A stretch of 64,000 nucleotides of DNA, taken from positions 123,048 through 187,047 of the forward strand of contig CAWEYP010000006.1 of assembly GCA_963813305.1 (NCBI GenBank), read 5' to 3'. Of the stretch, positions 3,673 to 62,459 are shown piece by piece. Position 1 is the first letter of the stretch. Each line of letters opens with the position of its first letter. The position numbers and the translations under genes are program-made. The stretch is from an uncultured Chloroflexia bacterium. GTDB lineage: Bacteria; Chloroflexota; Limnocylindria; Limnocylindrales; CSP1-4. Under the pieces are notes generated by a model, which ran no database searches, was not told the origin of the DNA, and was given only the letters and a program-made list of their open reading frames with translations.

Positions 3673-3744
3673 TCGAGGGCGCCGCCGCGGGGCCCTGACC
3701 GCGGACCCTCTTGCGCTCGACGGCCGGAGCACGATGATGCGCAG

Positions 3745-30563: not shown

Positions 30564-30779
30564 GTTCCGCCGTCAGCGCCTGGCCTGACCCGGTCCACCC
30601 TTGCTCGACGTGGGACGTGTCGATCATAGCGAGCCACCCCTCGGTCGCACGGGTAGCGGCTCCAGGGTCGCAACCGCCGGCGCCCGAGAACTGCCTTCAA
30701 CGTGCTGCGGGCCGGCGGCGGGCCCCCGGTCAGTCAGATCGCGGGCATCCTGGTGTGCCGAGCCTAACGGCGCCGGCCC

Positions 30780-32276: not shown

Positions 32277-32517
32277 CTTCGCTACCCTCGAGTTCGGCCG
32301 CGCGCTGGCAGCAGGGCACCCGGGCCGGCTCTCCACCGCCCACCAGCGACGACGAACCCCTGCCTATCGTCCAGGTCGACTCCCGGAACAGGGACTCGCA
32401 AAGCTGCGAGGTGAGTGTACGCGCGGAGAGCGGACGAGTTCTCGGCGATGGCTGCGCGAGAGCGTTCAGCCGGGACACTCTGGATCCCGCGGCTGCCTCG
32501 GCGCGGATGCGCGGTGC

Positions 32518-42508: not shown

Positions 42509-43057
42509 TCAGGGCTTGAACTGGAGCTCGGCTCCGTTGAAGGTGCTGACCATCGAGACCATCAGCCCATCGTCGGTGATGTAGGCGTCCGCGCCCTGGT
42601 AGGGCTCAGCGAGGAACGGGGCATTGGCCTCCCACGTGACGGCGATGGTGCCACCGATCTTCTGTCGAGAAAGCTCGGTGAACGTGATCCCGCACAGCCC
42701 TCCCTGGGAGTGCGGCAACACGAACCCGGCGAACGTCGCGTTGGCCTCCTCGCGGCCCTTGACGAGCACTCCGTTCGGCAGGCGGAGCTCGTAACTGTCG
42801 GGATACTGCTGCATCAGCCCCTTCCAGTCACAGCCGTTGAGGGCCTTCAAGTGCTGGGCGAGCACCGCGTCTGGAGTGCGCTCACGGACCAGCTTTCTCG
42901 ACTTCTGCCCGGTGTTGGGGTTCGTGACCGAGATTGCCGTGTACTTGTGTGAGTTGGAGTGCCACCCCGGCACGGTCCTGCCATTGCCTGCGAACGTGAC
43001 CGCGGCGCTGGCAAGCAGCGCGATCGTGACGAGCGCCACCAAACCGATCCTGCGCAT
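42509..43057 (-). CDS. Secreted hypothetical protein (signal peptide; SnoaL/NTF2-like suspected)
   Basis: RBS ggaggggg precedes ATG 43057. The N-terminus is MRRIGLVALVTIALLASAAVTFA. Confidence 0.6.
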   Translation of the reverse strand: MRRIGLVALVTIALLASAAVTFAGNGRTVPGWHSNSHKYTAISVTNPNTGQKSRKLVRERTPDAVLAQHLKALNGCDWKGLMQQYPDSYELRLPNGVLVKGREEANATFAGFVLPHSQGGLCGITFTELSRQKIGGTIAVTWEANAPFLAEPYQGADAYITDDGLMVSMVSTFNGAELQFKP

Positions 43058-43239
43058 GGTGTCCCCCTCCTGCGTGGGTAGCGGTGCAAGTCGGCCCCAC
43101 CAGTGGCTCGGCGCGTTCCCGGCGGCCGGGATTTGGCGTGTCAAAGCCTCCCGCAACGCGCCCACCTTGGCAGGTCCAGTGCAGGTTGGCAAGGAATCAA
43201 CGATTCTCGATTATCCGTCTCCATTGAACCGGAGCTCGG

Positions 43240-43482: not shown

Positions 43483-44253
43483 ATGTCCGAGTTCACCCCT
43501 GCGCCAGGGTTCGCCTGCGGTAGGATCGGCACAATTCGAGGAGGCCCCCACGTGGGTGCGACCGAACCGGTTGGTACCCATCTCGCACGGCTGCTGCCGC
43601 GTGCCGGCGCCGGCACGCTGCGTCGCCTGGAGCATGGGGCTCGGCACCAGACCTTCTCCCGCCGTGACCTGTTGCACGCGAGGGGTTTCCAATTGCCACC
43701 CTTCGTCGTGCTCGATGGGCACGTCATGAACCGCCGCGTCGTGGAGACGGGACAGGTCTACGCCGCGCTGATCGCGGGGCCCGGATACCTCGGCGGACTT
43801 CGCTCGATCAGCGACCCGGACGCCGACGCGCTCTACGAGCTGGTCGCGCTGAGCGACGGGACGTGGGCGACGTGGAATCCGGGGTTCATGCGGCAGATGG
43901 CGCTCGAGGACGCCGGGCTGGCCGTGGGCCTCCTCGACCTGGCATCGGACTTCGCGGTGGTCCTCAACGTGCGACTCGACGAACGGTCCTTCGCGAGCGC
44001 GCGCCAGCGGATGGCCGCCATCCTCCTCCGCTACGGGAGCGTGATCTTCGACACGCCCCATCCGGTCGCGCAGCGAGCCGACCTGGCAGCCATGATCGGC
44101 ACGAGCCGCGTGATGATGTACCGGACGCTGCGCGGGCTGGAAGCCGACGGCCTCGTGGAACGCCAGCGCGGCGGCGGCATCAACGTTTTGGACAAGGACG
44201 GGCTCGCCCGACTTGTCGACGTGGCGGCCCCTGACGGCGCCCCGCCTCTCTGA
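43483..44253 (+). CDS. Crp/Fnr-family transcriptional regulator (cNMP-binding domain plus C-terminal HTH)
   Basis: HTH (RADLAAMIGTSRVMMYRTLRGLEADGLVERQ). A beta-roll region lies upstream. The start is uncertain (ORF opens at 43288). Confidence 0.7.
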   Translation: MSEFTPAPGFACGRIGTIRGGPHVGATEPVGTHLARLLPRAGAGTLRRLEHGARHQTFSRRDLLHARGFQLPPFVVLDGHVMNRRVVETGQVYAALIAGPGYLGGLRSISDPDADALYELVALSDGTWATWNPGFMRQMALEDAGLAVGLLDLASDFAVVLNVRLDERSFASARQRMAAILLRYGSVIFDTPHPVAQRADLAAMIGTSRVMMYRTLRGLEADGLVERQRGGGINVLDKDGLARLVDVAAPDGAPPL

Positions 44254-44993: not shown

Positions 44994-45502
44994 AGAGACC
45001 CCGGTCGCCCGATGTGCGCCCCCATCCCGCGAACGGAGCGATCAGGGGTCGGTCTGGGTGGACTCAGCCTCGGCGATCCCCAGGGTGGTGGTCGCGCTCG
45101 CAGTCGCGGCAGATTCGGTTCGGGCGCCGCGTCGCGCGCGGGCACAGGCAGACCGCGCAGCGGCAATCCTTCAGCTCCGCCACGAAACCACGGTGCTACT
45201 CCGTTTCACGCTGCGCGGGGACACCGCCCATCACACCGACCCCGGGACGCCCGGTGCGCCGCGCTCCCCCCAGTCTCGAGCGGGCGACCGGGCGTGCCGG
45301 GGGTCGTCAGGTGTTCGACGTCCCACGCGATCGAGCGCGGATCGTGTGCGTCCCGGCGTCCTGTGTCGATAAACAATGGCCGAAAACGCATCGGCCTCCC
45401 GGTCGCCCGGTGCGCGCAGCTGCCGGAGCCTTCCTACGGCGTCGGGGGCGAGCCGGGGAAGATGAGGCCGTGGGGCGCAGGTCGGGCCCCCGGACGTGCA
45501 AG

Positions 45503-45600
45503 CATCGTGCGCTGGGGCCGAACGGTGGAGGGTCCCGCACCGAAGGCACGGGGTCTGCCAACGAGACCCGTCCGACTATTGTGCGCTTCGCAGGCACGAG
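45503..45600 (+). repeat. Degenerate short copy (F) of the structured repeat family
   Basis: Keeps the left boundary catcgtgcgctg and the right-end motif ccgactattgtgcgcttcgcaggcacgagg. Confidence 0.45.
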
Positions 45601-46009
45601 GACTACCGTTTGGGGACTGCTCCCGGACGAATGCGCACGTAGCGAATGTGGTAGCGCATCCTGCCGACGGCTGACGGGCGGGTCTTGGCGCCCTCGGACG
45701 GACGCGGGGCTCGACGGCGGCGCAGGATGCCCCGCCCCACCGGTGGCACGCTCTCACATCACCTGACGCCGCTTTGACCCCGCCCGCTCGGCACCCGGGG
45801 TCGCGTCCCCGGCGAGCTCCTGCGACGACGGCGCGCCAACTGCGGGCTGTTTGTCACTCGTCAATCGCGCGTGCCCTGCCGATGATCCAAACGACGGCAC
45901 ACGAACCCGCTCGACCCGCAGACCTGCCGTCGACGGCAGCCGCGGAGCTGCCTCGGAGAGTGCGTTGCCCGGAAGACTGCTGCACCGGGACAAGCAGAGA
46001 CGGCGAGCC

Positions 46010-46261
46010 ATGGTCTCGGCGGTCGTCGTCGCCGAGCCGGTCCGGTGCGTCGAGTGCGGAATCTGCACGTACAACTGCCCGCTGGGCATCGACGTCCGCA
46101 CCCACGCCCGACTGGGGCAGCCCGTTGCCGACACCTACTGCCTGACCTGCGGCGAGTGCGTCGCCCGCTGCCCGCGCGGCACCTTGCGTTTCGAGATGTC
46201 GGCGGTGTTCAACTCCGGGCTCCACCCGCGGGGGTGGATGAGATGGCCCGACGCTACGTGA
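46010..46261 (+). CDS. 2x[4Fe-4S] ferredoxin
   Basis: CVECGICTYNCP and CLTCGECVARCP motifs. Overlaps the next gene by 19 nt. Confidence 0.7.
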   Translation: MVSAVVVAEPVRCVECGICTYNCPLGIDVRTHARLGQPVADTYCLTCGECVARCPRGTLRFEMSAVFNSGLHPRGWMRWPDAT

Positions 46262-47562
46262 TCGTCGGCAACGGACCGGCCGGCCTGACGGCGGCAGAGA
46301 CGATCCGCCGCAACGACCAGTCCGGTGAGATCCGGATCGTCGGTAGCGAGGACCACCGCTTCTACTCCCGTCCCGGCCTGGCCTACCTGCTGACGGGAGC
46401 CATCCCGGAGAAGCGGCTCTTCTCGCGCCCGGACTCGGAGTACGAGCGGGCCCGCATCCACAGATCCGTGGGGACCGTGCAGCGGATCGAGCCTGCGGAT
46501 CACCTGATCACGCTCGCCGACGGCCGGACGATGACCTACGACCGCCTGCTGCTGGCCGTCGGGGCTCGAGCCGTGCGGCCGTCGATCCCCGGCTCCGATC
46601 TCGACGGCGTGGTGACGCTCGACAACCTCGACGACGCACGTCGCATCCTGCGCCTCGCGCGCCGGGCCAAGCGCGGGTGTGTCGTCGGAGGCGGGATCAC
46701 GGCAGTCGAGCTGGCCGAGGGCCTGGCGGCACAGCGGGTCGAGACGCACTACCTGATGCGCGGTGACCGCTACTGGGCGAGCGTCCTCAGCCCGCACGAG
46801 TCGGCGCTCGTCGAGGAGCGCCTCGTCGAGGACGGCATCCGCATCCACCCTGGCATGGAGCTGGCCCGCGTGATCGGGCGCAAGGACCGGGTCTCGGCGG
46901 TCGAGACCCAGACCGGGGCCGTGCTGCCGTGCGATCTCCTCGCGGTGGCGATCGGCACGCTGCCGCGAATCGAGGTGGCGCAGCAGGCGGGCCTCGAGAC
47001 CGGCCGCGGTATCTGGACCGACGACACCTTCCAGACCAGCGACCCCGACATCTTCGCCGCCGGCGATGCCGCCGAGGTGCTCGACGCGGCCACCGGCAAG
47101 CGCGGTCTCGACAGCCTGTGGTCCGTCGCCATCGAGCAGGGCCGGGCCGCCGGGGACAACCTGAGCGGCGTCATCCGCCACTACCGCCGGCCTGCGCCGT
47201 TCAACGTGACGAAGATCGGCGGGGTGACCACGACCCTCATCGGCGCCGTCGGCACCGGCGGCCGGGAGGGAGACCTGGTGACCCTGGCCCGAGGCGACAG
47301 CAACGCGTGGCGGGAGCAGCTGGATTCCTTCGCCGTCGTGTCAGACGCGGGTGCCAACCACCTCCGGCTCTCGCTGGGCGACGATCGGATCCTGGGCGCG
47401 GTCGTGATGGGCGACCAGGCGCTCTCGCGTCCATTGCAGCGCCTGATCCGGGAGCGGGTCGACATCCGCTCCGTGCGCGACCGGCTGATCCAGCGGCCGG
47501 CCGAGATCCACCGGGAGCTCGTGGCGCTCATGGAGAGGACGGCCTCGCTTGGCGCGGTATAG
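46243..47562 (+). CDS. FAD-dependent pyridine nucleotide-disulfide oxidoreductase (NAD(P)H:acceptor reductase)
   Basis: Two Rossmann GxGxxG motifs (VIVGNGPAGLTAAE; CVVGGGITAVELAE) and an FAD C-terminal motif (IFAAGDAAEV). Confidence 0.85.
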   Translation: MARRYVIVGNGPAGLTAAETIRRNDQSGEIRIVGSEDHRFYSRPGLAYLLTGAIPEKRLFSRPDSEYERARIHRSVGTVQRIEPADHLITLADGRTMTYDRLLLAVGARAVRPSIPGSDLDGVVTLDNLDDARRILRLARRAKRGCVVGGGITAVELAEGLAAQRVETHYLMRGDRYWASVLSPHESALVEERLVEDGIRIHPGMELARVIGRKDRVSAVETQTGAVLPCDLLAVAIGTLPRIEVAQQAGLETGRGIWTDDTFQTSDPDIFAAGDAAEVLDAATGKRGLDSLWSVAIEQGRAAGDNLSGVIRHYRRPAPFNVTKIGGVTTTLIGAVGTGGREGDLVTLARGDSNAWREQLDSFAVVSDAGANHLRLSLGDDRILGAVVMGDQALSRPLQRLIRERVDIRSVRDRLIQRPAEIHRELVALMERTASLGAV

Positions 47563-48220
47563 GGAGCTCATGCTGGCGCTGCTGGCCATCGTCGGCATCA
47601 CCGTGGTATACGGCAGCTACGTCCGTGCCGTCGACGTTCCCGCGGCGAGCGGCCTGCTCGGCCACTCCCTGGGGATCGTCGGCTTCACGATGATGCTGAT
47701 GACGGAGACGCTCTACTCGGTCCGCAAGCGGGCCATGCGGCGGCCGCGGGGAACGATGCGCTCCTGGCTGCGGTTCCACATCTTCACCGGGATCGTCGGC
47801 CCCTACCTCGTCGTGCTCCACGCCGCCTGGACCTTCAACGGGCTGGCGGGGGCGCTGACGGCCATGACGGTCGTCGTCGTGGCCAGCGGCTTCGTCGGGC
47901 GATACATCTACACCGCGGTGCCGCGCACGGCGGACGGGGTGGTGATCGAGGCGCAGGAGCTGCAGCTGCTGCTGGACGCCGCGCGGCAGGAGGTGGCGCA
48001 CCCATCGACCGAGAACGGGGCGTCCGGTGCAGCACGGGGCCGGGAGCGGGCGGCGTCGCGCCGGCTGCGCGAGCTGGAACGGCAGATGGCTGCGCTCCGC
48101 TGGGCGCGGCGCACCCTGGCGACCTGGCACACGATCCACATCCCCCTGGGGATGGCCCTCTTCGTGACGGCCTTCGCGCATATCGGGGCTGCCGTCTATT
48201 ACGCAACGCTGCTGCGCTGA
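47549..48220 (+). CDS. 4-TM integral membrane protein, putative di-heme b-type cytochrome membrane anchor
   Basis: Four hydrophobic helices. Conserved His residues lie in TM2 (LRFHIFTG...LHAAW) and TM4 (WHTIHIPLG...FAHIGAAVYY). Operonic with the multiheme cytochrome. Confidence 0.55.
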   Translation: MARYRELMLALLAIVGITVVYGSYVRAVDVPAASGLLGHSLGIVGFTMMLMTETLYSVRKRAMRRPRGTMRSWLRFHIFTGIVGPYLVVLHAAWTFNGLAGALTAMTVVVVASGFVGRYIYTAVPRTADGVVIEAQELQLLLDAARQEVAHPSTENGASGAARGRERAASRRLRELERQMAALRWARRTLATWHTIHIPLGMALFVTAFAHIGAAVYYATLLR

Positions 48221-48229
48221 GGCGACGAG

Positions 48230-49837
48230 ATGCGCCGTCCGCTGGGCTGCATGACCTTCTCGGCGCTCGTTGCCGCCGTCCTGACGTTCCTCGCGATCCT
48301 CGCCGCCGCCGCCCTCACCGGCAACGGGATCTTCAGCCCCGGCTCGCTCAGCGGCGTCGCGCGAGGCGCCCCGATCGAGGGCGTGAGCTCCCACGCCGAG
48401 CTCGAAGCCCGGTGCGACGCCTGTCACGCGACCGCCTTCTCGGGCCACCGGATGGCCGACCGGTGCCTGGACTGCCATACCCAGGTGCAGCAGGAGATCT
48501 CCTCCGGGGACGGGCTGCACGGCCTGTTGGCCCCGGTGGACGACTGCCGCGGCTGCCACACGGACCACCGGGGCGCGACGGCCTCGCTCACGCTGGCGGA
48601 CCCGGCCGTCTTCCCCCACGACCGGACGGGCTACTCCCTGCGCGCGCACCCGCTCCGCGCCGGTGGCGGCAGCTTCGGGTGCCTGGATTGCCACCCCGGC
48701 TCGCCGACGTCGTTCACGCCACCCGCCTGCATCGCCTGCCACGAGGAGCGCGATCAACCCTACATGGCGCAGCACGTCGGGACCTTCGGCACGGCCTGCC
48801 TGAACTGCCACGACGGGATCGACTCCTACGGGGCCGCGTTCGACCATGCGACATACCCCCTGACCGGCGGGCACGGCGAGGCGCTGTGCGGCGCCTGTCA
48901 CCAGGGCGCGACGACCATCGAGGCGCTCCAGGCCACGGAGACCGCGTGCGCCGCCTGCCATGGAGCCGACGACGTCCACGACGGCCGCCTGGGCACCTCG
49001 TGCGGGGGGTGCCACACCCCCGCAACCTGGGCGAACGCGACCATCGACCACGACCTCACGCGCTTCCCCCTTGTCGGACGCCACGTGGGTCCGCTCTGCG
49101 AGTCCTGCCACGTCGACCAACAGTGGACGGGGATCGGCCTCACCTGCCGCAGCTGCCACGCCGTCGATGACCCGCACGCCGGGCAGTTCCCCGGTGACTG
49201 CGCGCGCTGCCACGCGCCCACCGGCTGGAAGGACGTCACCTTCGACCATGCCCAGACGGGGTTCGCTCTCAAGGGCGGGCACGCCAAACCCGCCTGTGCG
49301 GCCTGCCATCCGGACGGCCGGTACGTCGGGACGCCGACCTCGTGCATCGGATGCCACGCCGGTGACGACCGCCACAAGGGGACTTTCGGCAAGGACTGCG
49401 CCGCCTGCCACAAGGCGACGACCTGGGCCGACTGGACGTTCGACCACGCCAAGTCGTCGTTCCCGTTGACCGGTGCCCATCGCGGCGTGTCCTGCCAGGG
49501 CTGCCATGCAGGCGGCAAGTTCCAGGGAACGCCGAGCACGTGCTCGGCCTGCCATGCCAGGCCTGCCTCGCACGGCACCGTCCTTCGCGGCAACTGCGGA
49601 TCCTGCCACTCGACCCGAGCCTGGAAGCCCGCGTCGTTCAACGGGCCGCATCCGTTCCCCATGAACCATGGCGGCGCCGGTGGGTCCTGCGCTCAATGCC
49701 ACCCGTCTTCGCTGACCAGCTACTCCTGCACTCGATGCCACTCGAGAGCCGACATGGCGGAGCATCACAAGGAGGTGTTGGGGTTCTCGATGACCACGTG
49801 CGCGAGGTGCCATCCGAATGCCCAAGGGGGTGGCTGA
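48230..49837 (+). CDS. Membrane-anchored multiheme c-type cytochrome with 21 CxxCH motifs (doubled-CXXCH repeat architecture)
   Basis: 21 CxxCH motifs counted by eye in 535 aa. An approximately 25-aa repeat recurs (FDHxxTxFPLxGxHxxxxCxxCH). An N-terminal TM anchor is predicted (MTFSALVAAVLTFLAILAAAAL). Confidence 0.85.
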   Translation: MRRPLGCMTFSALVAAVLTFLAILAAAALTGNGIFSPGSLSGVARGAPIEGVSSHAELEARCDACHATAFSGHRMADRCLDCHTQVQQEISSGDGLHGLLAPVDDCRGCHTDHRGATASLTLADPAVFPHDRTGYSLRAHPLRAGGGSFGCLDCHPGSPTSFTPPACIACHEERDQPYMAQHVGTFGTACLNCHDGIDSYGAAFDHATYPLTGGHGEALCGACHQGATTIEALQATETACAACHGADDVHDGRLGTSCGGCHTPATWANATIDHDLTRFPLVGRHVGPLCESCHVDQQWTGIGLTCRSCHAVDDPHAGQFPGDCARCHAPTGWKDVTFDHAQTGFALKGGHAKPACAACHPDGRYVGTPTSCIGCHAGDDRHKGTFGKDCAACHKATTWADWTFDHAKSSFPLTGAHRGVSCQGCHAGGKFQGTPSTCSACHARPASHGTVLRGNCGSCHSTRAWKPASFNGPHPFPMNHGGAGGSCAQCHPSSLTSYSCTRCHSRADMAEHHKEVLGFSMTTCARCHPNAQGGG

Positions 49838-50017
49838 CAGCTGAGGCCACGCCACATCGGTACCTTGCCCGCACGCGAGACGTGGCCTGGGGCCGCTCCG
49901 CACGCCCTGTACGTGGTCGAGCTCGCTGCCTGCGCGGGCGCCCGAACGGCCCGTCACGTCGGGTGCACCGGCCACCCCGACGCGGTGCGGGGACCGGGGC
50001 GAGGGCGGCAGCATCGG

Positions 50018-50225: not shown

Positions 50226-51968
50226 CTACGGCGCGACGAGCGTGGTCGTGTAGATCGGGTCGCCGTGCAAATCGAGCGCCACGACGGTCCCCGAGTAGAG
50301 AGGCTGCTTCGGGCCGCACTCGGTGCGCCCGGTGCCGGCGGGCTCGACTGCGAACCCGTAGACGGTGTTCCTGGCCCCGACTTCCGAGGTGGCAAGCCAC
50401 GCCCCGGCCTCGACGAGCGTGACAGGCCAGCCCGCCTTGACCTTGCCGGTTGTCCCGATCGCCGTGACTCTGTTGGCGGTGGCTCGGACGCCCCCCTCCG
50501 TGTTCTGTGCGAGGTGGAGGCTCCCGTCCGGGCCGGCGAACGGCGGCAAGTAGAAGGAGGGGCAGGACGGGCAGGTCGTGCAGGCCCCACCCACGTTGAC
50601 GACGAGGTCGTCCTGGGACCTGTGTGGCCAGCCTGCTCGCAGCTGGCCTGATGGACCGAGGGCGTACGCGACAGTCTCCGCCCCAGGGCCCGCGACGACG
50701 TAGACCGAGCCGTCCGGCGCCACGACGGGCGGGAGTGGCGGAGACGCCACGTCGGACGCGGGCAGCGTCGTGTCGATCGGAAGCTGGACCGGCCAACCCC
50801 TGGCGAGGCGGCCGTCGCGGGTGAAGGCGTAGACCTGAGAGGACGCGCGAGGGGTGATGCGCCCCTCGTCGTCAACTGGCCAGCGGCCGGCCGTGACGTA
50901 GATGTCGCCGTCCGTGCCGAATGACGGAACCGACGCCCAGCCGGCGACGCTGATCGGCCAGCCGGTCGCGAGGCCGTCAAGAGTGAGGGCCGAGATCAGG
51001 GTCTCTTCGGTGTCGCCGCCCACGACATACGCGGTCCCGTCCGGTCCGATCGACGCTTGGAGACTGACGAGCTCAGGGTCCCGCAGGCTCACACCAATCC
51101 GCGTGGAGCCATCCCTGGCCACGCGGACCAGCGTCGCAGAAGCCCTGCCGGCTTCCCTATCGAGCAGGACGACGTAGAGGTCGCCGTTCACGAGCCCCGT
51201 CGGGTCGCTCAGATACCACTCGAGGCCGCCTCTCGGGAGGTCGACCGGCCAGCCCGCCATGAGTCGGCCCGACCCGTCAAGCGCGAAGGCTCGCAGCCGC
51301 CCCGTCTCTCCGATCGCGCAGACGGCGCGCACCGAGCCGTCGGAAGGGTCAGCGTCGAGCGTGCAACCTGTGGCCTTCTTCAGCAGCACCGGCCAGCCCG
51401 CGCGAACACTGCCCTCCGCGTCGAGTGATCCGAGGACGGTGCCGTTCTCTGCCGGGATCGCCACGAACAGCCCGCTGTCGGGGCCCGCCGCCAGGCCGAC
51501 TCTCGCCAGCTCGCCGGCGTTCCCCTTCACCGGGAAGGACGCCGCGGCAACCGCCGTCGCGACGAAGCTCGCAGCCGGCGTCGAGGTCGGGGCGGCGGAC
51601 GGCGTGGCCGCGGTCGGGGCGGCGGACGGCGTGTCGGCAGTGGAGGTTGGCGCGGCCGTGACGAGCGGCGTCGCCGTCGGGGGGAGGGGCGGCACCACGG
51701 CCGGCAGCTTCCGCTCCATCTGCGAGCCGACGATCAGCATCCCGCCGACGAGCGCGGCCAACAGGCCCGCACCGACGAGCAGGAGCACGGCCGGGCGCGA
51801 GACAGTGACAGGGCGCAGGCCGAGGGCCGCCGCCAGCCGGTCCGACAACGCGGCCGGTTCGGTCGCCGGGATGGCCGCAACCGCCCCTCGGAGGGCGTCG
51901 GGCACGGCTGGCGACGCCTGGGCGTCGAGCCAGTCGCGGAGCCGCCGCTCGGTCTCGCGCTCGTTCAT
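50226..51968 (-). CDS. Membrane anti-sigma factor with a large extracytoplasmic beta-propeller domain (repeated GWP motifs)
   Basis: Its ATG overlaps the ECF sigma stop (ATGA). It has an N-terminal cytoplasmic segment, one TM (AVLLLVGAGLLAALVGGMLIV), a Pro/Thr/Ala linker, and at least 8 repeats ending in AGWP/RGWP. Confidence 0.75.
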   Translation of the reverse strand: MNERETERRLRDWLDAQASPAVPDALRGAVAAIPATEPAALSDRLAAALGLRPVTVSRPAVLLLVGAGLLAALVGGMLIVGSQMERKLPAVVPPLPPTATPLVTAAPTSTADTPSAAPTAATPSAAPTSTPAASFVATAVAAASFPVKGNAGELARVGLAAGPDSGLFVAIPAENGTVLGSLDAEGSVRAGWPVLLKKATGCTLDADPSDGSVRAVCAIGETGRLRAFALDGSGRLMAGWPVDLPRGGLEWYLSDPTGLVNGDLYVVLLDREAGRASATLVRVARDGSTRIGVSLRDPELVSLQASIGPDGTAYVVGGDTEETLISALTLDGLATGWPISVAGWASVPSFGTDGDIYVTAGRWPVDDEGRITPRASSQVYAFTRDGRLARGWPVQLPIDTTLPASDVASPPLPPVVAPDGSVYVVAGPGAETVAYALGPSGQLRAGWPHRSQDDLVVNVGGACTTCPSCPSFYLPPFAGPDGSLHLAQNTEGGVRATANRVTAIGTTGKVKAGWPVTLVEAGAWLATSEVGARNTVYGFAVEPAGTGRTECGPKQPLYSGTVVALDLHGDPIYTTTLVAP

Positions 51969-52507
51969 CTCGTCACCTCGGGACGCTCGCCCTCGAGCGC
52001 GACGCCGAGGTCGCGCAGGGCATAGTGAAGGCGCGACTTGACCGTACCGGCCGGCACGCCGACCCGGGCCGCGATCTGGTCGATCGACAGGTCGCGGTAG
52101 TAGCGGAGGATCACGACGATCCGCTGGTCGGGATCGAGCCTCGCGAGGCCACGCCCCACGGCATCGCGGTCGGCGGCGACCGCCGCGATGTCGTCCGCGG
52201 CTGGGCTCATGGACAGCTCGTCGCTGAGGTCGGTGATCGGGTGCCTCCGGGTCCGGCGGAGGCGGTCGCGACAGACATTGACGAGGATCCGCCCGAACCA
52301 CGCCTCGAAGCGGGCTGGGTCGCGGAGCGAGCCCCAGTGCTTCCAGGCGGCGACGAAGGCATCGTGGGTCGCGTCCTCGGCCTCCGCCGGGTCGCCCAGG
52401 ATCAGCGCAGCGAGCCGGTAGCTGTCGGCGAGGTGGCGCTCGGCGAGCTCGGAGAACGCCGCCGCCCGGTCCGCGTTCGCGCTCCCGATCGCCCGCTCCC
52501 TGAGCAT
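51965..52507 (-). CDS. ECF (sigma-70 family group IV) RNA polymerase sigma factor
   Basis: Region 2 (DATHDAFVAAWKHWGSLRDPARFEAWFGRILVNVCRDRLRR) and region 4 (LDPDQRIVVILRYYRDLSIDQIAARVGVPAGTVKSRLHYALRDL). Confidence 0.85.
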   Translation of the reverse strand: MLRERAIGSANADRAAAFSELAERHLADSYRLAALILGDPAEAEDATHDAFVAAWKHWGSLRDPARFEAWFGRILVNVCRDRLRRTRRHPITDLSDELSMSPAADDIAAVAADRDAVGRGLARLDPDQRIVVILRYYRDLSIDQIAARVGVPAGTVKSRLHYALRDLGVALEGERPEVTR

Positions 52508-53485: not shown

Positions 53486-55738
53486 ATGGGCGTCGCTCGC
53501 CGTCGCATGCTGGAGCTGGCCGACGGGGAGCAGGCCGATCGCCTGGCCCTGTCACTGATCGAGTCGCGCTTTCGACCGCCCCTACCCCGGCTTCGGCTCG
53601 TCCGCCGCGAAAGCGTCCTCTTCAGGCTCGACAACGGCAGCGCGCCTCTCATCGTCATCGCTGCACCCGGCGGCTTCGGCAAGACCATCACGCTCGCGCA
53701 GTGGGTGCGGACTGAAGCACGCCCGGTCGCATGGCTGCAGGCTGACGAGGCAGATGACGATGCGCTGCTCTTCCTAACCTATCTCGCGTCGGCGCTGGAC
53801 GACATCGTCGAGATCGATCGCCGAGTGTGGAGCTGGCTCCGGCTTGCGCCGCCGCCCGTCACCACGCGCATCCTGCCGGCCATCGCCGGGGCAGTTGCAG
53901 CAGCGGAGCCCTTCCTGTTCGTCATCGACGATGTGCACCTCGTCAGCAACCCCGCCTGCTGGCGAATGATCAACCTGGTGATCGACCAGTCACCACCAGG
54001 CTCTCAGGTATGCCTTGCGGGTCGCGTCGAGCCCCTGCTGCCGCTCGCGCGTCTTCGCGCGGAGGGGCGGCTGCTCGAGCTTGGTCCTCGCGAGCTGGCA
54101 TTTACGTCGCGGGAGATCGACCAGCTCCTCGCTCTACAAGGGGCGCCGGCCGACAGTGCGACCGTGGCCCGCCTCGCTGAGTTGACCGACGGCTGGGCAG
54201 CCGGGCTGTATCTTGCCGTGCTCGCCGGCTCGGAGGTGCCGGGACACGATTGGCTGGCGAGCATCCGCGGTGACCGCCACGGCATCGCGCGTTATCTCGC
54301 GACCGAGGTCCTGCATCGCGAAACCCCGGAAATGCGTCGCTTCCTGTTGCAGACCTCGATCCTTGAGCGGCTCTCGCTGGGTCTCTGTCGGGTGGTGACC
54401 GAGAACCCAAGGGCCGGGGAGTTGCTCCAGAGGGCTGCCCGCGACAATCTGTTCGTGACGGCGCTCGACGACGCCGACGAGTGGTTCCGCTACCACCACC
54501 TCTTCGCCGAATTCCTGATGGCTGAGCTGGCGCGTGGCAACGAGTCCGAGGTGCGCGCGCTCCATGCCCGCGCTGCGGCGTGGTTCGAGGCGCACGGGGC
54601 GCCGGACGAGGCGGTTCGACACTGGCTGGCTGCGGGCGATGCACGTCGCGCCGGCCTGATCGTCTGCTGCGCACACGCCGATTACTCGAGTCGCTCACGC
54701 CATGAGACGATTCGCCGCTGGCTGGAGATGTTCTCGGACGAGCAGATCCTTGCCGACCCGGCGCTCACCATCATTGCCGGCAACTCGACCCCGATGACGG
54801 GCGACTCGCGCCCGCGGGCTCGCCGTTGGCTCACCGCCGCCCTCCTTCTGAAGCCTGGTGACGACGTGATGCCCGGCACGAACATGCCGTTGGGCGCCCT
54901 GCACGCGATCCTCGTCGGAGAGCTAGCCCTCGGCGGGGTGAGCCAGATGCGTCGGTGCGGAGAAGAAGCGGTCCTGCTGAGCCGGTCCGGTGACCTGACC
55001 GTGCAGGCCGCGGCAGAGGTGCTGCTCGGGCAGGCCCTGTGGCTTGCCGGCGACTCTACCCGGGCCGAGCCGCATCTGCGGGCAGGCGAGGAGGCGGGTG
55101 CGGTGGCGCACTGCCTCATGCAGATCACGGCCATCGGGCTGCAGGCGCTCTCGCTCGCAGATCAGGGTCGCTGGAAAGAAGCGCGTGCGAAGATGGCGGC
55201 AGGCCTCGCACGGTTCGGCGACGCGGGGCTGCGATGGGCTCCGCCCCACTTCCCACTCCTGCTGGCCCAGGTGCGGCTCGAGGCTCACGATCGAGGACCC
55301 GATGTCACGGGACTGGTAGCCGAAGTTGCCGACTTCATCGGCTACCCCGAGATCGGCCCCTTCCCGGTGCTCACGTCCCAGGTCATGGTGGCCGAGGCAC
55401 TCGCCGACTGCGGCGACGTCGACGCCGCCGAACCGTGGGTGCGTGACGGTCTTGCCACGCTCGCGACGTACCCGGATGCAGGCATGCTCGGCGGGCGGCT
55501 GCTTCGGCTGCGCGGCCTGCTCGAGCAGCGCCAGCTCGTCGAGCCGCTCACGACCGCTGAGCGCCGAATCCTCGAGTTGCTCCCGAGTGAGCTCAGCGAG
55601 AAGGAGATAGCGCGACGGTTGCTGGTCTCTCCAGAGACCGTCCACTCGCACGTAGCGGCCGTCTATCGCAAGCTCGACGTCCACGTCCGGAGCGAGGCCG
55701 TGGAGAAGGCGCGATCACTCGGCCTTCTTGGCTCCTGA
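53486..55738 (+). CDS. LuxR-family transcriptional regulator of the large ATP-binding LAL/MalT type (intact, 750 aa)
   Basis: P-loop (VIAAPGGFGKTITLAQW), TPR-like middle region, and C-terminal LuxR HTH (LTTAERRILELLPSELSEKEIARRLLVSPETVHSHVAAVYRKLDV). Confidence 0.85.
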   Translation: MGVARRRMLELADGEQADRLALSLIESRFRPPLPRLRLVRRESVLFRLDNGSAPLIVIAAPGGFGKTITLAQWVRTEARPVAWLQADEADDDALLFLTYLASALDDIVEIDRRVWSWLRLAPPPVTTRILPAIAGAVAAAEPFLFVIDDVHLVSNPACWRMINLVIDQSPPGSQVCLAGRVEPLLPLARLRAEGRLLELGPRELAFTSREIDQLLALQGAPADSATVARLAELTDGWAAGLYLAVLAGSEVPGHDWLASIRGDRHGIARYLATEVLHRETPEMRRFLLQTSILERLSLGLCRVVTENPRAGELLQRAARDNLFVTALDDADEWFRYHHLFAEFLMAELARGNESEVRALHARAAAWFEAHGAPDEAVRHWLAAGDARRAGLIVCCAHADYSSRSRHETIRRWLEMFSDEQILADPALTIIAGNSTPMTGDSRPRARRWLTAALLLKPGDDVMPGTNMPLGALHAILVGELALGGVSQMRRCGEEAVLLSRSGDLTVQAAAEVLLGQALWLAGDSTRAEPHLRAGEEAGAVAHCLMQITAIGLQALSLADQGRWKEARAKMAAGLARFGDAGLRWAPPHFPLLLAQVRLEAHDRGPDVTGLVAEVADFIGYPEIGPFPVLTSQVMVAEALADCGDVDAAEPWVRDGLATLATYPDAGMLGGRLLRLRGLLEQRQLVEPLTTAERRILELLPSELSEKEIARRLLVSPETVHSHVAAVYRKLDVHVRSEAVEKARSLGLLGS

Positions 55739-60197: not shown

Positions 60198-60461
60198 TCA
60201 CGCCTCGCGCGCGACTTCCGGCCCGGGAGGCGGTAGCGGTTCCCCCGCCGGGGTGGGCCTCTGCTCCTCCAGGAGGGCGAGGATGCGATCGGTGTTCGCT
60301 CGGATCGCCGTGACGTTCGTGTAGATCCACTTCGGCGGGGACGTGTCAGGCATCGCGGCGATCCGCTCTCCGATGTCCATCTTGCCGACCCCGGACCCAA
60401 GCGCTCTCGCGAGGAGCGCCCCACCGGCGACTATGGCAGCGATGACCCACGCCTTCTTCAT
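60198..60461 (-). CDS. Small secreted/membrane-anchored hypothetical protein (87 aa)
   Basis: RBS gaggagg precedes the ATG. N-terminus is MKKAWVIAAIVAGGALLARA. The start overlaps the upstream gene stop. Confidence 0.55.
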   Translation of the reverse strand: MKKAWVIAAIVAGGALLARALGSGVGKMDIGERIAAMPDTSPPKWIYTNVTAIRANTDRILALLEEQRPTPAGEPLPPPGPEVAREA

Positions 60462-60991
60462 GTGAGCCTCCTCAGGTCAAGAGGACTTCGGCCGCGGGCC
60501 CACAGCCCGATCCCGACACCGAACGCGATGTGGCCGACGAGCATGATCCGGAGGAGCCGCCCGGCCTCCCCCGACCGGAGGCCCAACCAGCCGTAGCCCA
60601 TCGAGGGGAACATGACCAGGAGCGGCAGCACGGCCGTCGAGATGCCGTACACGGTCCCTGCCAGGAAGCTCCGTCTCCCACGCCAGCGAGGCGGCACGAG
60701 CAGGAATGCCTGCGTGAGCGCGACGCCCGTGACGTAGTGGGTGACCAGGCCGAGCGCGAGCTCACCGCGCTGCGCCGGCTCGCGGCTGATGTCGACGCGG
60801 CGCCACCGGCCGCGCAGCAGGCCGGCTGCCCAGCGGCCGATCATGTCCGGGCCGAGACGGTCGGAGCTGAACGCACTCCCACCGAGGACGCCGGCGGCCA
60901 CCATGGCGACGTCCATGCTGATGGTCGCCAGCACGCCCGCCGGAACCCCGGCCGGAACGCGGATCGAGCGGATCGGCCGGACGTCCATCAC
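60458..60991 (-). CDS. DUF2938-like integral membrane protein
   Basis: Hydrophobic 177-aa ORF, translationally coupled to both flanking genes. Confidence 0.55.
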   Translation of the reverse strand: MMDVRPIRSIRVPAGVPAGVLATISMDVAMVAAGVLGGSAFSSDRLGPDMIGRWAAGLLRGRWRRVDISREPAQRGELALGLVTHYVTGVALTQAFLLVPPRWRGRRSFLAGTVYGISTAVLPLLVMFPSMGYGWLGLRSGEAGRLLRIMLVGHIAFGVGIGLWARGRSPLDLRRLT

Positions 60992-62058
60992 TCAACGTTT
61001 CCGGCGGCGAGCATCAGCTCAACCTGCTCGGCGACCCTGCACCCGATCGTCCTGCACCTCGTGATCTGCTCACCGTCGATGTACCTCGACACGCCCCCGG
61101 TGTCGGAGAAGTCGCATCCGGTGATCTTCCGGCACTGGGTGCTGCCGAACTCGCCCGCGAACCACTTCGCCAGCCGGTTCCCGCGGTTCATGCTGGGGTT
61201 GAACTTGTTGAGGTGGTCACCGAAGGCGTCTCCGCCGACCGTCATGATGGCGAGCAGGCGGATGACCCGCAGGCGGCTGTTCTCGATCTCCCCGTCCTTC
61301 AGGCCGATCGCCATCACGCCCGCCGTGAGCGCGCTGCACGTCCTGCCCATGAACAGCGTCCCGCCCATGAACGCCGAGGTGGCATCGAACAGCTCGCGGT
61401 GCTCGGTGGGTGAGTAGCCCAGGTGGCCGAGCACGGCCTGAGCGCAGTGGAACTCGTTCTCCACGAAGTGCGAGTACAGCCTCGAGTAGCCTGCCCTGGT
61501 GCCCTCCGGGATGGCGTCCGACCGGTCGTCGTCGAGCGCGCCTCGCCAGAGCTCCGCCGAGCGCAGGACCGGACCGATGCACTGCCGCGGGAAGCCGTCC
61601 TTCGTTCGGATCTCCCGGCACTGGAGCGTCTGGTGGCAGGCGAGGAAGTCGCGGCACAGCGCATGCCCCCGGTCGAAGATCACCGGGAGACCACGGTCAA
61701 CCTCGCGCAGGCCGTGCTGTGTGCCCATCACCGCGAGGGGCGAGGTGACGGCCCCGCACTCGTGTCCCGTGTTGCCGATGCCCCCCGGCATGCCGGCGCT
61801 CAGCCTGACCAGCCATTCCTTGTCCGTCGACGAGACATCGAGGATCGTCTGCATGGCCGTCGGGGCGCAGTGGCCCATCCTCAGGAGGTTGGAGAAGCCT
61901 CGCCGCCGGTAGCTCCAGTTCGGACCCAGCTCAGGCTTCTGGGGTTGAGTCTGCGTCTCCATCAGATGATCCTTTCGAATCTCGCCCGACTGAGCGGCCT
62001 CGTTCTCCGCACCTTGGCCGGTCGAAACCGCTTGCGGCACGTACGAAACGCGGGCCAC
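60988..62058 (-). CDS. C_GCAxxG_C_C family protein (putative redox-active protein). GC content looks lower than the surroundings. The true start may be ATG 61962
   Basis: Family motif context (LLRMGHCAPTAM...GNTGHECGAVTSPLAVMG...CHQTLQCREI). An aaagga RBS sits before METQTQ. Confidence 0.65.
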   Translation of the reverse strand: MARVSYVPQAVSTGQGAENEAAQSGEIRKDHLMETQTQPQKPELGPNWSYRRRGFSNLLRMGHCAPTAMQTILDVSSTDKEWLVRLSAGMPGGIGNTGHECGAVTSPLAVMGTQHGLREVDRGLPVIFDRGHALCRDFLACHQTLQCREIRTKDGFPRQCIGPVLRSAELWRGALDDDRSDAIPEGTRAGYSRLYSHFVENEFHCAQAVLGHLGYSPTEHRELFDATSAFMGGTLFMGRTCSALTAGVMAIGLKDGEIENSRLRVIRLLAIMTVGGDAFGDHLNKFNPSMNRGNRLAKWFAGEFGSTQCRKITGCDFSDTGGVSRYIDGEQITRCRTIGCRVAEQVELMLAAGNVE

Positions 62059-62459
62059 GCCTATTCGTACCTGATCGCGTCACCGGGCTTCATGTTGGTG
62101 GCGCGCCGGAGAGGGAAGAAGATCACGATCAGCGTGCCGACCATCGCGAAGACTCTTTGAGATCACGAAGCTGGATGAGCGACATGAAGAAGCTCCCTCC
62201 GGTCCAGTCCGCTGTCATGCCAGCACTCGGGTGGGCGGGTCGGTCTCGCCAGTCGCTCGGCGCGGTCCCGGCGGCCGGGGTTGGACCGCGCGTCAGAGCT
62301 TCCCGCCGGCGGTCACGGTAGGCGCCTGCCGGGTCTCTGGCGAGGGCCGAAGGGCCCGGGGCCTACAAGCCACCCGCGCCGGCCGAGCCGTCCTCCGGCC
62401 CGCCGGCAGCGCCGGCATCGCCGCAACCCCGGCGGATGTCCAGTCCTCGGGCCACCAAA

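What the first reader, a model, noticed from the sequence alone, without database searches (positions are those of the whole stretch)
46010..49837. Ferredoxin / FAD-oxidoreductase / cytochrome-b-like / 21-heme c-type cytochrome operon in a high-GC Gram-positive-like genome
Seen directly:
- Four consecutive plus-strand genes with short overlaps.
- The last encodes a 535-aa protein with an N-terminal TM anchor and 21 CxxCH motifs in a doubled-CXXCH repeat architecture.
- The third is a 4-TM protein with conserved His residues in TM2 and TM4.

Established knowledge: multiheme c-type cytochromes with membrane quinol-dehydrogenase-like partners mediate extracellular electron transfer, for example in Geobacter and Thermincola. 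Such large multiheme cytochromes are uncommon in Actinomycetota.

Inference: a soluble NAD(P)H to ferredoxin input module may be coupled to a membrane b-type cytochrome and an extracytoplasmic multiheme wire. No cytochrome c maturation genes are in the window.
Basis: partly seen in the sequence, partly recalled or inferred. Interest (0 to 1): 0.65.

Follow-up and report, generated by a model that had tools for sequence, protein, structure and literature searches.

The report
Chloroflexota four-gene multiheme electron conduit
A compact operon of an uncultured Chloroflexota (Limnocylindria-type) bacterium encodes a cytoplasmic NAD(P)H flavoprotein, a ferredoxin, an unannotated two-heme membrane cytochrome b and a membrane-anchored 21-heme cytochrome c. 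Together they look like a wire carrying electrons from inside the cell to the outside; the parts are known kinds, but I found no description or test of this combination, which recurs in hundreds of uncultured species.

Summary
Four tightly packed plus-strand genes (46010-49837) encode:
- an 83-aa 2x[4Fe-4S] ferredoxin;
- a 439-aa FAD/NAD(P)H oxidoreductase, whose closest solved relative is AorC, the NAD-binding cap of a polyferredoxin wire;
- a 223-aa membrane protein;
- a 535-aa cytochrome with exactly 21 CxxCH motifs (shuffles give 0.3).

Three corrections:
- The organism is Chloroflexota (Limnocylindria-like), not Actinomycetota.
- The cytochrome is seven tandem triheme c7-type units, not a doubled-CXXCH type.
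- The membrane protein has five TM helices plus a cytoplasmic helical hairpin. Four conserved His lie on TM3 and TM5, 14 residues apart on each helix. It is a divergent, Pfam-unannotated member of the di-heme cytochrome b clan.

In 79 species-representative Chloroflexota loci, the oxidoreductase is adjacent in 67/68, the ferredoxin in 66/68, and a c7 multiheme cytochrome lies directly downstream in 58/73. Heme numbers vary mostly in steps of three (12-42). All 21 motifs and 21 further His are invariant in close homologues.

Best reading (inferred, untested): NAD(P)H -> FAD -> Fe-S -> two b hemes across the membrane -> 21-heme rod -> external acceptor, without quinone. No cytochrome c maturation genes are in the window. 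No paper describing the cassette was found. It is a new variant of a known kind.

The parts
45812..46009 (+). Conserved leader or promoter region upstream of the ferredoxin gene. It is part of the block shared with the closest relatives.
   Evidence: Nucleotide similarity to L004 and L005 (85-87%) starts at 45812-45822 and ends at 49847-49893; the flanks are unrelated. The scan found no sigma-70-like promoter. A TTG-N8-CAA box at 45851 is conserved only in L004 and L005.
46010..46261 (+). Ferredoxin, 83 aa, with two CxxCxxCxxxCP motifs (2x[4Fe-4S]).
   Evidence: Pfam Fer4_9 and Fer4_10 at about 1e-8. The best PDB sequence match is a polyferredoxin MvhB module, 6.8e-14. It is present upstream of the oxidoreductase in 66/68 related loci.
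46243..47562 (+). FAD-dependent NAD(P)H oxidoreductase, 439 aa, of the ferredoxin/rubredoxin-reductase type (AorC/PadH-like).
   Evidence: Pyr_redox_2 at 1.7e-55. Best NCBIfam hit is PadH, 1.5e-54, below its cutoff. Full-length match to PDB 8c0z_E (AorC), 2.8e-52. Adjacent to the membrane gene in 67/68 loci.
47549..48220 (+). Putative di-heme cytochrome b, 223 aa (TTG start). It has five TM helices plus a cytoplasmic helical hairpin (about residues 128-190). The proposed heme ligands are H77/H197 (cytoplasmic side) and H91/H211 (outer side).
   Evidence: No Pfam or NCBIfam family reaches its cutoff. H197 and H211 are invariant and H77 and H91 are conserved in at least 90% of 32 diverse members. 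AlphaFold2 pLDDT is 91. Charge distribution follows the positive-inside rule. Family members give weak but consistent hits to Ni_hydr_CYTB (25/32), DUF4405 (22/32) and Ferric_reduct (15/32).
48230..49837 (+). Membrane-anchored 21-heme c-type cytochrome, 535 aa. It has an N-terminal cytoplasmic RPLGC tail and a TM helix, followed by seven triheme c7-type units.
   Evidence: 21 CxxCH motifs. Cytochrome_C7 at 3.2e-30. Units contain 6-7 His each. All 21 motifs plus 21 other His are invariant in 15 homologues. The best solved relative of the repeat-unit profile is 3OV0 (GSU1996), 1.9e-5.

Best explanation
The four genes encode one self-contained transmembrane electron-transfer module.

Proposed pathway:
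1. In the cytoplasm, the flavoprotein oxidises NAD(P)H and reduces the 2x[4Fe-4S] ferredoxin. This is the same chemistry as AorC/AorA and PadH/PadI.
2. The ferredoxin delivers electrons to the cytoplasm-side heme b (H77/H197) of the five-helix membrane protein. It probably docks on the Arg/Lys-rich loop and the cytoplasmic helical hairpin.
3. The electron crosses the membrane to the outer heme b (H91/H211).
4. It then enters the 21-heme cytochrome c, whose N-terminal helix holds it next to the b cytochrome.
5. The seven tandem all-bis-His triheme units form an extended heme rod. If built like GSU1996, it would be about 20 nm long. It could carry, or store, electrons through the envelope to external acceptors such as Fe(III)/Mn(IV) minerals, humic substances or partner proteins.

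The route needs no quinone.

What is shown: the genes, their domains, the cofactor-binding motifs and their conservation, the predicted membrane topology, and the conserved gene order.

What is inferred: complex formation, heme b binding, the direction of flow and the acceptor.

Outward electron flow from NAD(P)H is not by itself energy-conserving, because it moves negative charge out and leaves H+ inside. The likeliest role is therefore an electron sink or extracellular reductase rather than a coupling site.
For: Domains and motifs:
- AorC is an FAD subunit that exchanges electrons between NAD and a [4Fe-4S] ferredoxin-like subunit, with 9.5 A between FAD and the cluster (PMC10413684). The window protein matches it end to end (2.8e-52) and has no redox-active Cys at the YSRPGLAY position.

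Membrane protein:
- Two conserved His pairs lie 14 residues apart on TM3 and TM5 (H197 and H211 invariant, H77 and H91 in at least 90% of 32 members).
- The model is confident (pLDDT 91).
- Loop 58-72 carries 5.4 K+R on average, while the outer loops carry almost none. This places one His of each pair near each membrane face.
- Weak but consistent hits to the di-heme cytochrome b clan were found.
- A DUF4405 protein of that clan has been shown to bind heme b (PMC11334425).

Cytochrome:
- 21 invariant CxxCH motifs plus 21 invariant extra His.
- c7-type triheme repeats.

Gene neighbourhood:
- Gene order fdx-oxr-mem is kept in 66-67 of 68 loci. A c7 multiheme cytochrome lies directly downstream in 58 of 73 loci, and upstream in 14 of the other 15.
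- The order is also kept in divergent zinc-ribbon/GYF-fused variants.
- Flanking genes are never shared.
- Overlapping or abutting reading frames suggest co-translation.
Against: - There are no experimental data for any member.
- Heme b binding is inferred. The window protein itself is below every Pfam cutoff (15.4 bits against 30.1), and neither Foldseek nor an HMM search finds a solved relative.
- Physical contact between the ferredoxin and the membrane protein could not be tested. No Rosetta-stone fusion was found.
- Members of the PF01292 family are typically quinone-reactive, so a quinone site cannot be excluded.
- A distant member pairs with a 12-heme c7 cytochrome without the ferredoxin or flavoprotein (L086). 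The cytoplasmic donors are therefore not obligatory for the b/c pair.
- The cytochrome model failed (pLDDT 39), so the rod shape rests on analogy with GSU1996.
- No cytochrome c maturation genes are in the window.
Confidence: 0.58

Rival explanations
1. Quinone-coupled conduit. The membrane cytochrome b is a (mena)quinol:cytochrome c oxidoreductase, playing the role of CbcL, CymA or ImcH. The ferredoxin and flavoprotein would then reduce the quinone pool or serve another purpose.
For: The best weak Pfam relationship is to PF01292 (HydC/FdnI/CybB), whose members react with quinones. A distant relative has only the b cytochrome plus a c7 cytochrome.
Against: The ferredoxin and the AorC-type flavoprotein are present in 66-67 of 68 loci, with overlapping frames. 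The flavoprotein resembles Fe-S-protein reductases over its full length, not NDH-2. The cytochrome gives no NapC/NirT hit. Having both a cytoplasm-side and an outer-side His pair fits transmembrane transfer from a cytoplasmic donor.
Confidence: 0.15
2. Same wire, non-respiratory role. It could be an assimilatory ferric or metal reductase, or an electron-storage 'capacitor' or redox buffer at the cell surface, rather than a route for dissimilatory extracellular respiration.
For: The NAD(P)H-driven outward route is not energy-conserving (inference). GSU1996-type c7 polymers are proposed to be capacitors (PMC10138318). Two variant loci carry a divergent DtxR/IdeR-FeoA iron regulator next to the cassette. 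The di-heme relatives FoxB, MsrQ and the FRD family act as reductases for uptake or repair (PMC11334425).
Against: An iron regulator is present in only 2 of about 80 loci. A 21-42-heme rod is large for a simple assimilatory reductase. No siderophore or iron-transport genes are conserved next to the cassette.
Confidence: 0.17
3. Inward flow. The module takes electrons up from external donors (reduced minerals, humics, cathodes, partner cells, or H2 via an outer hydrogenase) and delivers them to ferredoxin or NAD(P)+.
For: All the cofactors are reversible. The Hmc and Tmc complexes of sulfate reducers move electrons inward from periplasmic c3-type cytochromes (established knowledge).
Against: This is inference only. 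Electrons would move against the membrane potential, and uphill from bis-His c hemes to [4Fe-4S] clusters and NAD(P)+. No extracytoplasmic hydrogenase or oxidase is conserved nearby.
Confidence: 0.06
4. The adjacency is coincidental or the genes are decaying, so the proteins do not work together.
For: None beyond the lack of experiments.
Against: Conserved order across hundreds of species, invariant cofactor ligands, strong third-position GC bias in all four genes, and intact frames.
Confidence: 0.02

Closest known systems
GSU1996 / GSU0592 / GSU2210 'nanowire' cytochromes of Geobacter sulfurreducens (tandem c7-type triheme domains; PDB 3OV0)
   Same: One polypeptide built of repeated triheme c7-like units: 4 units in GSU1996, 9 in GSU2210 and 7 here. 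It matches Pfam Cytochrome_C7. 3OV0 is the best solved match of the repeat-unit profile.
   Different: - The similarity is weak (1.9e-5) and the protein is below the TIGR04257 cutoff (17.9 against 40).
- The Geobacter proteins are soluble and periplasmic, and each domain has one His-Met heme.
- Here every unit has six conserved His, and the canonical repeats contain no Met. At least one GSU1996 domain has a Met where this protein has the conserved His.
- This protein is anchored by an N-terminal TM helix.
- It is genetically tied to a membrane cytochrome b and cytoplasmic redox proteins.
AorC/AorA of tungsten aldehyde oxidoreductase (PDB 8C0Z) and PadH/PadI of phenylglyoxylate:NAD+ oxidoreductase
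   Same: A Pyr_redox_2 flavoprotein exchanges electrons between NAD(H) and the [4Fe-4S] clusters of a ferredoxin-like partner. The match to AorC is full length at 2.8e-52, and the best NCBIfam hit is PadH.
   Different: - Here the Fe-S partner is a small two-cluster ferredoxin.
- The chain continues into a membrane cytochrome rather than a W- or TPP-dependent enzyme.
- The protein is below the PadH equivalog cutoff (185 against 475).
- The acidic residue at the end of the NAD-binding beta-strand of AorC (VVEMGDR) is replaced by Met-Arg (YLMRGDR). This is a weak hint of NADPH use.
Di-heme transmembrane cytochromes b: Ni_hydr_CYTB (PF01292), DUF4405 (PF14358), the ferric-reductase domain of NOX/FRE/MsrQ (PF01794), and FoxB
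   Same: Four conserved His on two TM helices could hold one heme near each membrane face for transmembrane electron transfer. The sequence relationship is weak but consistent. DUF4405 has been shown to bind heme b (PMC11334425).
   Different: - This protein has five TM helices and a cytoplasmic helical hairpin of 60 to more than 100 residues inserted before the last helix.
- It is below all Pfam cutoffs, and no solved relative was detected.
- Its partner is a multiheme cytochrome c rather than a flavinylated protein, MsrP or a fused NADPH domain.
NADPH oxidase / ferric reductase (NOX, FRE) and the E. coli Fre-MsrQ-MsrP system
   Same: The working logic is the same: cytoplasmic NAD(P)H, then a flavin, then two b hemes across the membrane, then an outside acceptor, without quinone.
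   Different: - The flavoprotein fold differs (two-dinucleotide-binding-domain type here, FNR-like in NOX).
- An extra ferredoxin is interposed.
- The components are separate polypeptides.
- A 21-heme c-type extension sits on the outside.
Hmc and Tmc transmembrane redox complexes of sulfate reducers; the multiheme EET chains of Thermincola and Carboxydothermus; the flavin-based EET of Listeria
   Same: These systems link cytoplasmic redox metabolism to extracytoplasmic multiheme or flavin carriers across the membrane of (mostly) monoderm or anaerobic bacteria.
   Different: - Hmc and Tmc use HdrD-like or NrfD-like subunits and run inward. The HmcA model scores only 29.6 bits against a cutoff of 400.
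- Thermincola and Listeria draw on the quinone pool.
- None of them has this four-gene composition.

Membership tests
c7-type multidomain ('nanowire') cytochromes c (GSU1996 family) | Tandem triheme c7-like domains detectable with Pfam PF14522 | tested here: met
   104 bits against a cutoff of 24.8, with 5 stretches. Seven units of three CxxCH each.
c7-type multidomain ('nanowire') cytochromes c (GSU1996 family) | NCBIfam TIGR04257 nanowire_3heme domain above its cutoff | tested here: not met
   17.9 bits against a cutoff of 40.
c7-type multidomain ('nanowire') cytochromes c (GSU1996 family) | One His-Met coordinated heme per triheme domain (PMC10138318) | tested here: not met
   Each unit has 6-7 His, and the four canonical repeats contain no Met. 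21 non-motif His are invariant. In the top-scoring aligned stretch, GSU1996 has a Met where this protein has the conserved His. This is sequence-level inference only.
c7-type multidomain ('nanowire') cytochromes c (GSU1996 family) | Soluble periplasmic protein | tested here: not met
   A conserved N-terminal TM helix is preceded by a conserved cytoplasmic [LF]GC tail in 92/107 homologues. Whether it is cleaved was not testable.
Di-heme transmembrane cytochrome b clan (PF01292 / PF14358 / PF01794) | Four conserved His on two TM helices, positioned to give one heme near each membrane face | tested here: met
   H197 and H211 are invariant; H77 and H91 are conserved in at least 90% of 32 diverse members. 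Spacing is 14 residues on each helix. The topology comes from the model and the positive-inside rule.
Di-heme transmembrane cytochrome b clan (PF01292 / PF14358 / PF01794) | Score above the gathering threshold of one of the clan's models | tested here: not met
   The window protein scores 15.4 against 30.1, 12.0 against 26.7 and 14.5 against 28. However, 25, 22 and 15 of 32 family members give sub-threshold hits, the best at 6e-8.
Di-heme transmembrane cytochrome b clan (PF01292 / PF14358 / PF01794) | Binds two b-type hemes | not testable with these tools
   This needs expression followed by pyridine hemochrome and UV-vis measurements. It has been shown only for a DUF4405 protein (PMC11334425).
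Ferredoxin/rubredoxin:NAD(P)+ reductase-type flavoproteins (AorC/PadH group) | Pyr_redox_2 fold with FAD and NAD(P) Rossmann motifs, and full-length homology including the C-terminal domain | tested here: met
   Pyr_redox_2 at 1.7e-55. 8c0z_E residues 2-414 align with query residues 4-428 at 2.8e-52.
Ferredoxin/rubredoxin:NAD(P)+ reductase-type flavoproteins (AorC/PadH group) | Equivalog-level membership (PadH, NF045765) | tested here: not met
   185.5 bits against a cutoff of 475.
NapC/NirT/NrfH/CymA quinol dehydrogenases | N-terminal TM helix followed by a tetraheme Cytochrom_NNT domain (PF03264) | tested here: not met
   No PF03264 hit at E <= 0.01 for the window cytochrome. Among the listed homologues, PF03264 is flagged only for P0065, one distant relative.
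   No hit at E <= 0.01.
Hmc complex (HmcA 16-heme cytochrome) | NF045713 above its cutoff | tested here: not met
   29.6 bits against a cutoff of 400.

The most novel reading that the evidence does not exclude
The cassette is a quinone-independent, NAD(P)H-fed 'split-NOX' wired to a modular heme rod that spans the cell envelope. On this reading it is the principal extracellular electron-transfer device of monoderm Chloroflexota (Limnocylindria, Anaerolineae, Caldilineae). Its length would be tuned by gain and loss of triheme units (12-42 hemes), and the cassette would move between genomic contexts as a self-contained unit. It would define a fourth architecture for bacterial extracellular electron transfer, beside the Mtr-type porin-cytochrome, Geobacter and Listeria types, in very abundant soil, sediment and freshwater lineages.
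Probability: 0.35. Interest if true: 0.75.

Novelty: new variant of a known kind. Interest (0 to 1): 0.6.

Why it matters
Chloroflexota of the Limnocylindria/Ellin6529 and Anaerolineae groups are among the most abundant uncultured bacteria in soils, aquifers, sediments and bioreactors. Their large multiheme cytochromes have been noted (10.1101/2021.08.23.457424; PMC7399161), but I found no paper proposing an electron-input route for them.

A conserved four-gene module that plugs NAD(P)H directly into a heme wire through a new di-heme membrane protein would give a concrete, testable mechanism for how these monoderm bacteria reduce minerals, humics or electrodes. It would also provide:
- a small portable gene set (about 4 kb) for engineering extracellular electron transfer;
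- a functional assignment for a large protein family without annotation (2,565 clusters at 50% identity);
- a natural series of heme wires of graded length.

Tried and rejected
2. AlphaFold2 of the cytochrome with 15 homologues gave pLDDT 39, so no fold search was run on it. phmmer of the whole cytochrome against the PDB found nothing at 1e-3.
3. Regulation. The scan found no sigma-70-like promoter and only one minus-strand terminator-like site. An FNR/FixK-like TTGTCACTCGTCAA box at 45851 is conserved only in the two closest loci (6 of 69 loci have any TTG-N8-CAA box). A link to the Crp-family gene at 43690-44253 is therefore not supported.
4. Conserved extra partners. The Crp-like gene, the ECF sigma, the anti-sigma-like gene and the neighbouring hypothetical genes of the window are not found next to the cassette elsewhere. 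A DtxR-like regulator appears in only 2 loci.
5. Rosetta-stone fusions of the ferredoxin or flavoprotein with the membrane protein: none found. The apparent fusions are frameshift artefacts. The real N-terminal fusions are zinc-ribbon/GYF domains.
6. Cytochrome c maturation genes: none in the window. The rest of the genome could not be reached. The window's own proteins are in the protein collection on a 193-kb contig, but their contig is not retrievable.
7. Actinomycetota origin: rejected on the basis of homologue names and loci.
8. Literature. Searches combining Chloroflexi/Anaerolineae/Limnocylindria with multiheme, ferredoxin, cytochrome b, NADH oxidase or oxidoreductase terms found no description of the cassette.

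Full report
**Observation**

The region 46010-49837 holds four plus-strand genes packed head to tail.

| Gene | Coordinates | Length |
|---|---|---|
| Ferredoxin | 46010-46261 | 83 aa |
| Oxidoreductase | 46243-47562 | 439 aa |
| Membrane protein | 47549-48220 | 223 aa (TTG start) |
| Cytochrome | 48230-49837 | 535 aa |

The first two genes overlap by 19 nt and the second and third by 14 nt. A 9-nt spacer precedes the cytochrome gene. The cytochrome has exactly 21 CxxCH motifs. Shuffling its own residues 2000 times gives a mean of 0.29 and never more than 3. All four frames show the third-position GC bias of real genes in this 71% GC sequence.

**What organism**

The relatives say otherwise.
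- Named homologues of the membrane protein and the cytochrome come from 'Chloroflexi bacterium RBG_16_72_14', 'Candidatus Limnocylindrales bacterium' and Anaerolineales MAGs.
- All 79 best loci among species-representative genomes are Chloroflexota MAGs.
- Limnocylindrales is an order of the phylum Chloroflexota.
- Large multiheme cytochromes have already been reported in this supergroup. One preprint counts proteins with at least 20 motifs (10.1101/2021.08.23.457424). Another paper notes variable heme numbers in homologous Anaerolineales cytochromes (PMC7399161).

The argument 'unusual for the taxon' therefore falls away.

**The parts**

*Ferredoxin.* It has two CxxCxxCxxxCP motifs and matches the 2x[4Fe-4S] families. 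Its best solved relatives are polyferredoxin modules.

*Flavoprotein.*
- It is a Pyr_redox_2 protein (1.7e-55).
- Its best curated relatives are PadH, the NirB N-terminal module, and ferredoxin and rubredoxin reductases. None reaches an equivalog cutoff.
- Its best solved relative, aligned end to end (2.8e-52), is AorC. AorC is the FAD- and NAD-binding subunit that caps the polyferredoxin wire of the Aromatoleum tungsten aldehyde oxidoreductase. It sits 9.5 A from a [4Fe-4S] cluster of AorA (PMC10413684).
- It has no redox-active cysteine at the position used by CoA-disulfide reductases and NADH oxidases (YSRPGLAY).
- The acidic residue that ends the NAD-binding strand in AorC is Met-Arg here. 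This is a weak hint of NADPH use.

*Membrane protein.*
- No Pfam or NCBIfam family reaches its cutoff.
- The family is large: 2,565 clusters at 50% identity reach E <= 0.001. Close relatives are 67-92% identical.
- An alignment of 32 diverse members shows H197 and H211 invariant and H77 and H91 conserved in at least 90%.
- The AlphaFold2 model is confident (pLDDT 91). Its helices are 4-28, 36-61, 70-91, 98-123, 128-150 and 159-220. This gives five TM helices plus a cytoplasmic helical hairpin.
- The loop 58-72 carries 5.4 Lys+Arg on average, whereas the short loops 27-35 and 92-97 carry almost none. The N-terminus and the hairpin are therefore cytoplasmic.
- H77 and H197 lie near the inner face, and H91 and H211 near the outer face. 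This is the classical arrangement of two bis-His b hemes stacked across a membrane.
- Scanned one by one, 25 of 32 members hit Ni_hydr_CYTB (best 6e-8), 22 hit DUF4405 and 15 hit Ferric_reduct, all below threshold for the window protein. These are all families of transmembrane heme-b proteins. A DUF4405 protein was recently shown to bind heme b and to share the four-His core with MsrQ and PepSY-like proteins (PMC11334425).

*Cytochrome.*
- It matches Cytochrome_C7 (3.2e-30, five stretches), not Paired_CXXCH_1.
- It divides into seven triheme units, four of them canonical 66-68-aa repeats. Each unit has 6-7 His.
- In 15 homologues of 63-87% identity, all 21 motifs and 21 further His are invariant. 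That is enough for bis-His ligation of every heme.
- A profile of the repeat unit finds GSU1996 (3OV0) as the best solved relative, but weakly (1.9e-5).
- GSU1996 is a chain of four c7-type domains, each with one His-Met heme. It is proposed to act as a periplasmic capacitor (PMC10138318).
- Where the top-scoring aligned GSU1996 stretch has Met, this protein has the conserved His.
- Unlike the Geobacter proteins, it starts with a conserved TM helix. This is preceded by a cytoplasmic [LF]GC tail, found in 92 of 107 full-length homologues.

**Conservation of the cassette**

Two long-contig examples carry all four genes in order. In a third the gene caller missed the ferredoxin, but the ORF is there.

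| Feature, among the 79 species-representative loci | Count |
|---|---|
| Flavoprotein gene directly upstream of the membrane gene | 67 of 68 testable |
| Ferredoxin gene upstream of that | 66 of 68 |
| c7-type multiheme cytochrome directly downstream | 58 of 73 |

- In 14 of the other 15 loci, c7-type cytochrome hits lie upstream instead. In L067 two such genes sit directly upstream of fdx.
- Heme counts in the downstream gene range from 12 to 42, and 90 of 107 full-length homologues have a multiple of three. This fits gain and loss of whole triheme units.
- More divergent members, with a zinc-ribbon/GYF domain fused to the ferredoxin and the membrane protein, keep the same four-gene order.
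- One distant member has only the b cytochrome plus a 12-heme c7 cytochrome.
- Nothing else is conserved around the cassette.
- Nucleotide similarity between the window and its closest relatives (85-87%), and among those relatives, covers only about 4.05 kb (window 45812-49893). The flanks are unrelated.

The cassette behaves as a self-contained unit sitting in different neighbourhoods.

**How it most likely works**

Shown: the cofactor motifs, their conservation, the predicted topology and the linkage.

Inferred: NAD(P)H reduces the FAD, and the FAD reduces the ferredoxin clusters, as in AorC/AorA. The ferredoxin then reduces the inner heme b, probably docking on the basic cytoplasmic loop and hairpin. 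The electron crosses to the outer heme b and enters the c-heme chain, which the cytochrome's TM helix holds alongside. GSU1996 is about 12 nm long with 12 hemes (my own recollection of Pokkuluri et al. 2011, not checked here). By that analogy a 21-heme chain could reach about 20 nm, the scale of a monoderm envelope.

The logic is that of NOX/FRE or Fre-MsrQ (NAD(P)H, flavin, two b hemes, outside acceptor). The differences are an extra ferredoxin, separate polypeptides and a long c-type extension.

Outward electron flow from NAD(P)H moves negative charge out and leaves the proton inside, so it does not build a proton-motive force. I therefore favour an electron-sink or extracellular-reductase role over an energy-coupling site. 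Inward flow to NAD(P)+ would run against both the membrane potential and the redox potentials, so I consider it unlikely.

A quinone site on the b cytochrome cannot be excluded. An assimilatory, iron-related or capacitor role uses the same wire and remains open. Two variant loci carry a DtxR-type regulator.

**What could not be settled**

The invariance of 21 CxxCH motifs across species argues that the protein is matured.
- Structural comparison of the membrane protein found no solved relative, and two structure libraries were unavailable.
- The cytochrome model failed.
- No promoter, terminator or conserved operator was identified.

**Novelty**

Each component belongs to a known superfamily. 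Large Chloroflexota multiheme cytochromes with variable heme numbers are already in the literature. I found no paper describing the conserved partnership with an AorC-type flavoprotein, a ferredoxin and this unannotated di-heme membrane protein, or the quinone-independent route it implies. I rate it a new variant of a known kind. Interest is moderate to high because of the abundance of the host lineages and because the model is directly testable.

Noticed in passing
window 43080-43160 (-) and 42509-43060 (-): A c-di-GMP-II-GAG riboswitch aptamer (48.3 bits against a gathering score of 40) lies immediately upstream of a gene for a 183-aa secreted protein with no Pfam family.
   Followed up: partly
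window 62229-62312 (-), with 60988-62058 (-) and 60458-60991 (-): A second c-di-GMP-II-GAG riboswitch (63.6 bits) lies upstream of a C_GCAxxG_C_C 'putative redox-active protein' gene followed by a DUF2938 gene.
   Followed up: partly
window ~45000-45810: About 800 nt directly upstream of the cassette show no codon-position GC periodicity in any frame and give no Rfam hit. This is an unusually long apparently non-coding stretch. Only its last ~190 nt (from 45812) are conserved in close relatives.
   Followed up: partly
window 45812-49893 versus L004, L005, L019, L001, L006, L008, L009, L011: Nucleotide similarity (67-87%) is confined to the four-gene cassette in every pair compared, with unrelated flanks. 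The cassette therefore sits in a different neighbourhood in each genome, through rearrangement or horizontal transfer. No mobile-element genes were seen at the borders.
   Followed up: partly
window 48230-48330 (cytochrome residues 1-33): A conserved cytoplasmic N-terminal tail carries an [LF]GC motif at residues 5-8, directly before the TM helix. It is present in 92 of 107 homologues, and R3-P4-L5-G6-C7 is invariant in the 15 closest. It is lipobox-like in sequence, but no hydrophobic region precedes it. Its function is unexplained.
   Followed up: partly
L067 317-4404 and L046: In this variant arrangement, two c7-type multiheme cytochrome genes lie upstream of fdx-oxr-mem. A DtxR/IdeR-type iron-dependent repressor with a FeoA domain is divergently transcribed next to them. 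It was seen in only 2 loci.
   Followed up: partly
P0248, P0252, P0254, P0261, P0262, P0269 (relatives of the membrane protein): Some family members carry an N-terminal CPxC...CPGC zinc-ribbon (possibly rubredoxin-like) domain, with or without a GYF domain, on the cytoplasmic side. In one contig the ferredoxin also carries a GYF_2 domain, and the four-gene order is kept.
   Followed up: partly
window 21885-30572 (-): A very large gene (2,895 aa) carries glucoamylase-like, GH94 supersandwich and GH94 catalytic domains.
   Followed up: no
window 3673-7407 (+), 17412-20057 (-), 53486-55738 (+): There are three large AAA_16-type signalling or regulatory proteins. One has zinc ribbons and an adenylate/guanylate cyclase domain. 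The other two are LuxR/GerE-type, one of them with a MalT-like TPR region. The window also contains a PAS-GAF-GGDEF protein at 30780-32363 (-).
   Followed up: no
window 50226-52507 (-): Directly downstream of the cassette, on the opposite strand, lies an ECF sigma factor gene (51965-52507). It is followed by a 580-aa protein without a Pfam family (50226-51968) that has a predicted TM segment and a long extracytoplasmic region, so it is possibly an anti-sigma factor. The pair is not conserved next to the cassette elsewhere.
   Followed up: partly
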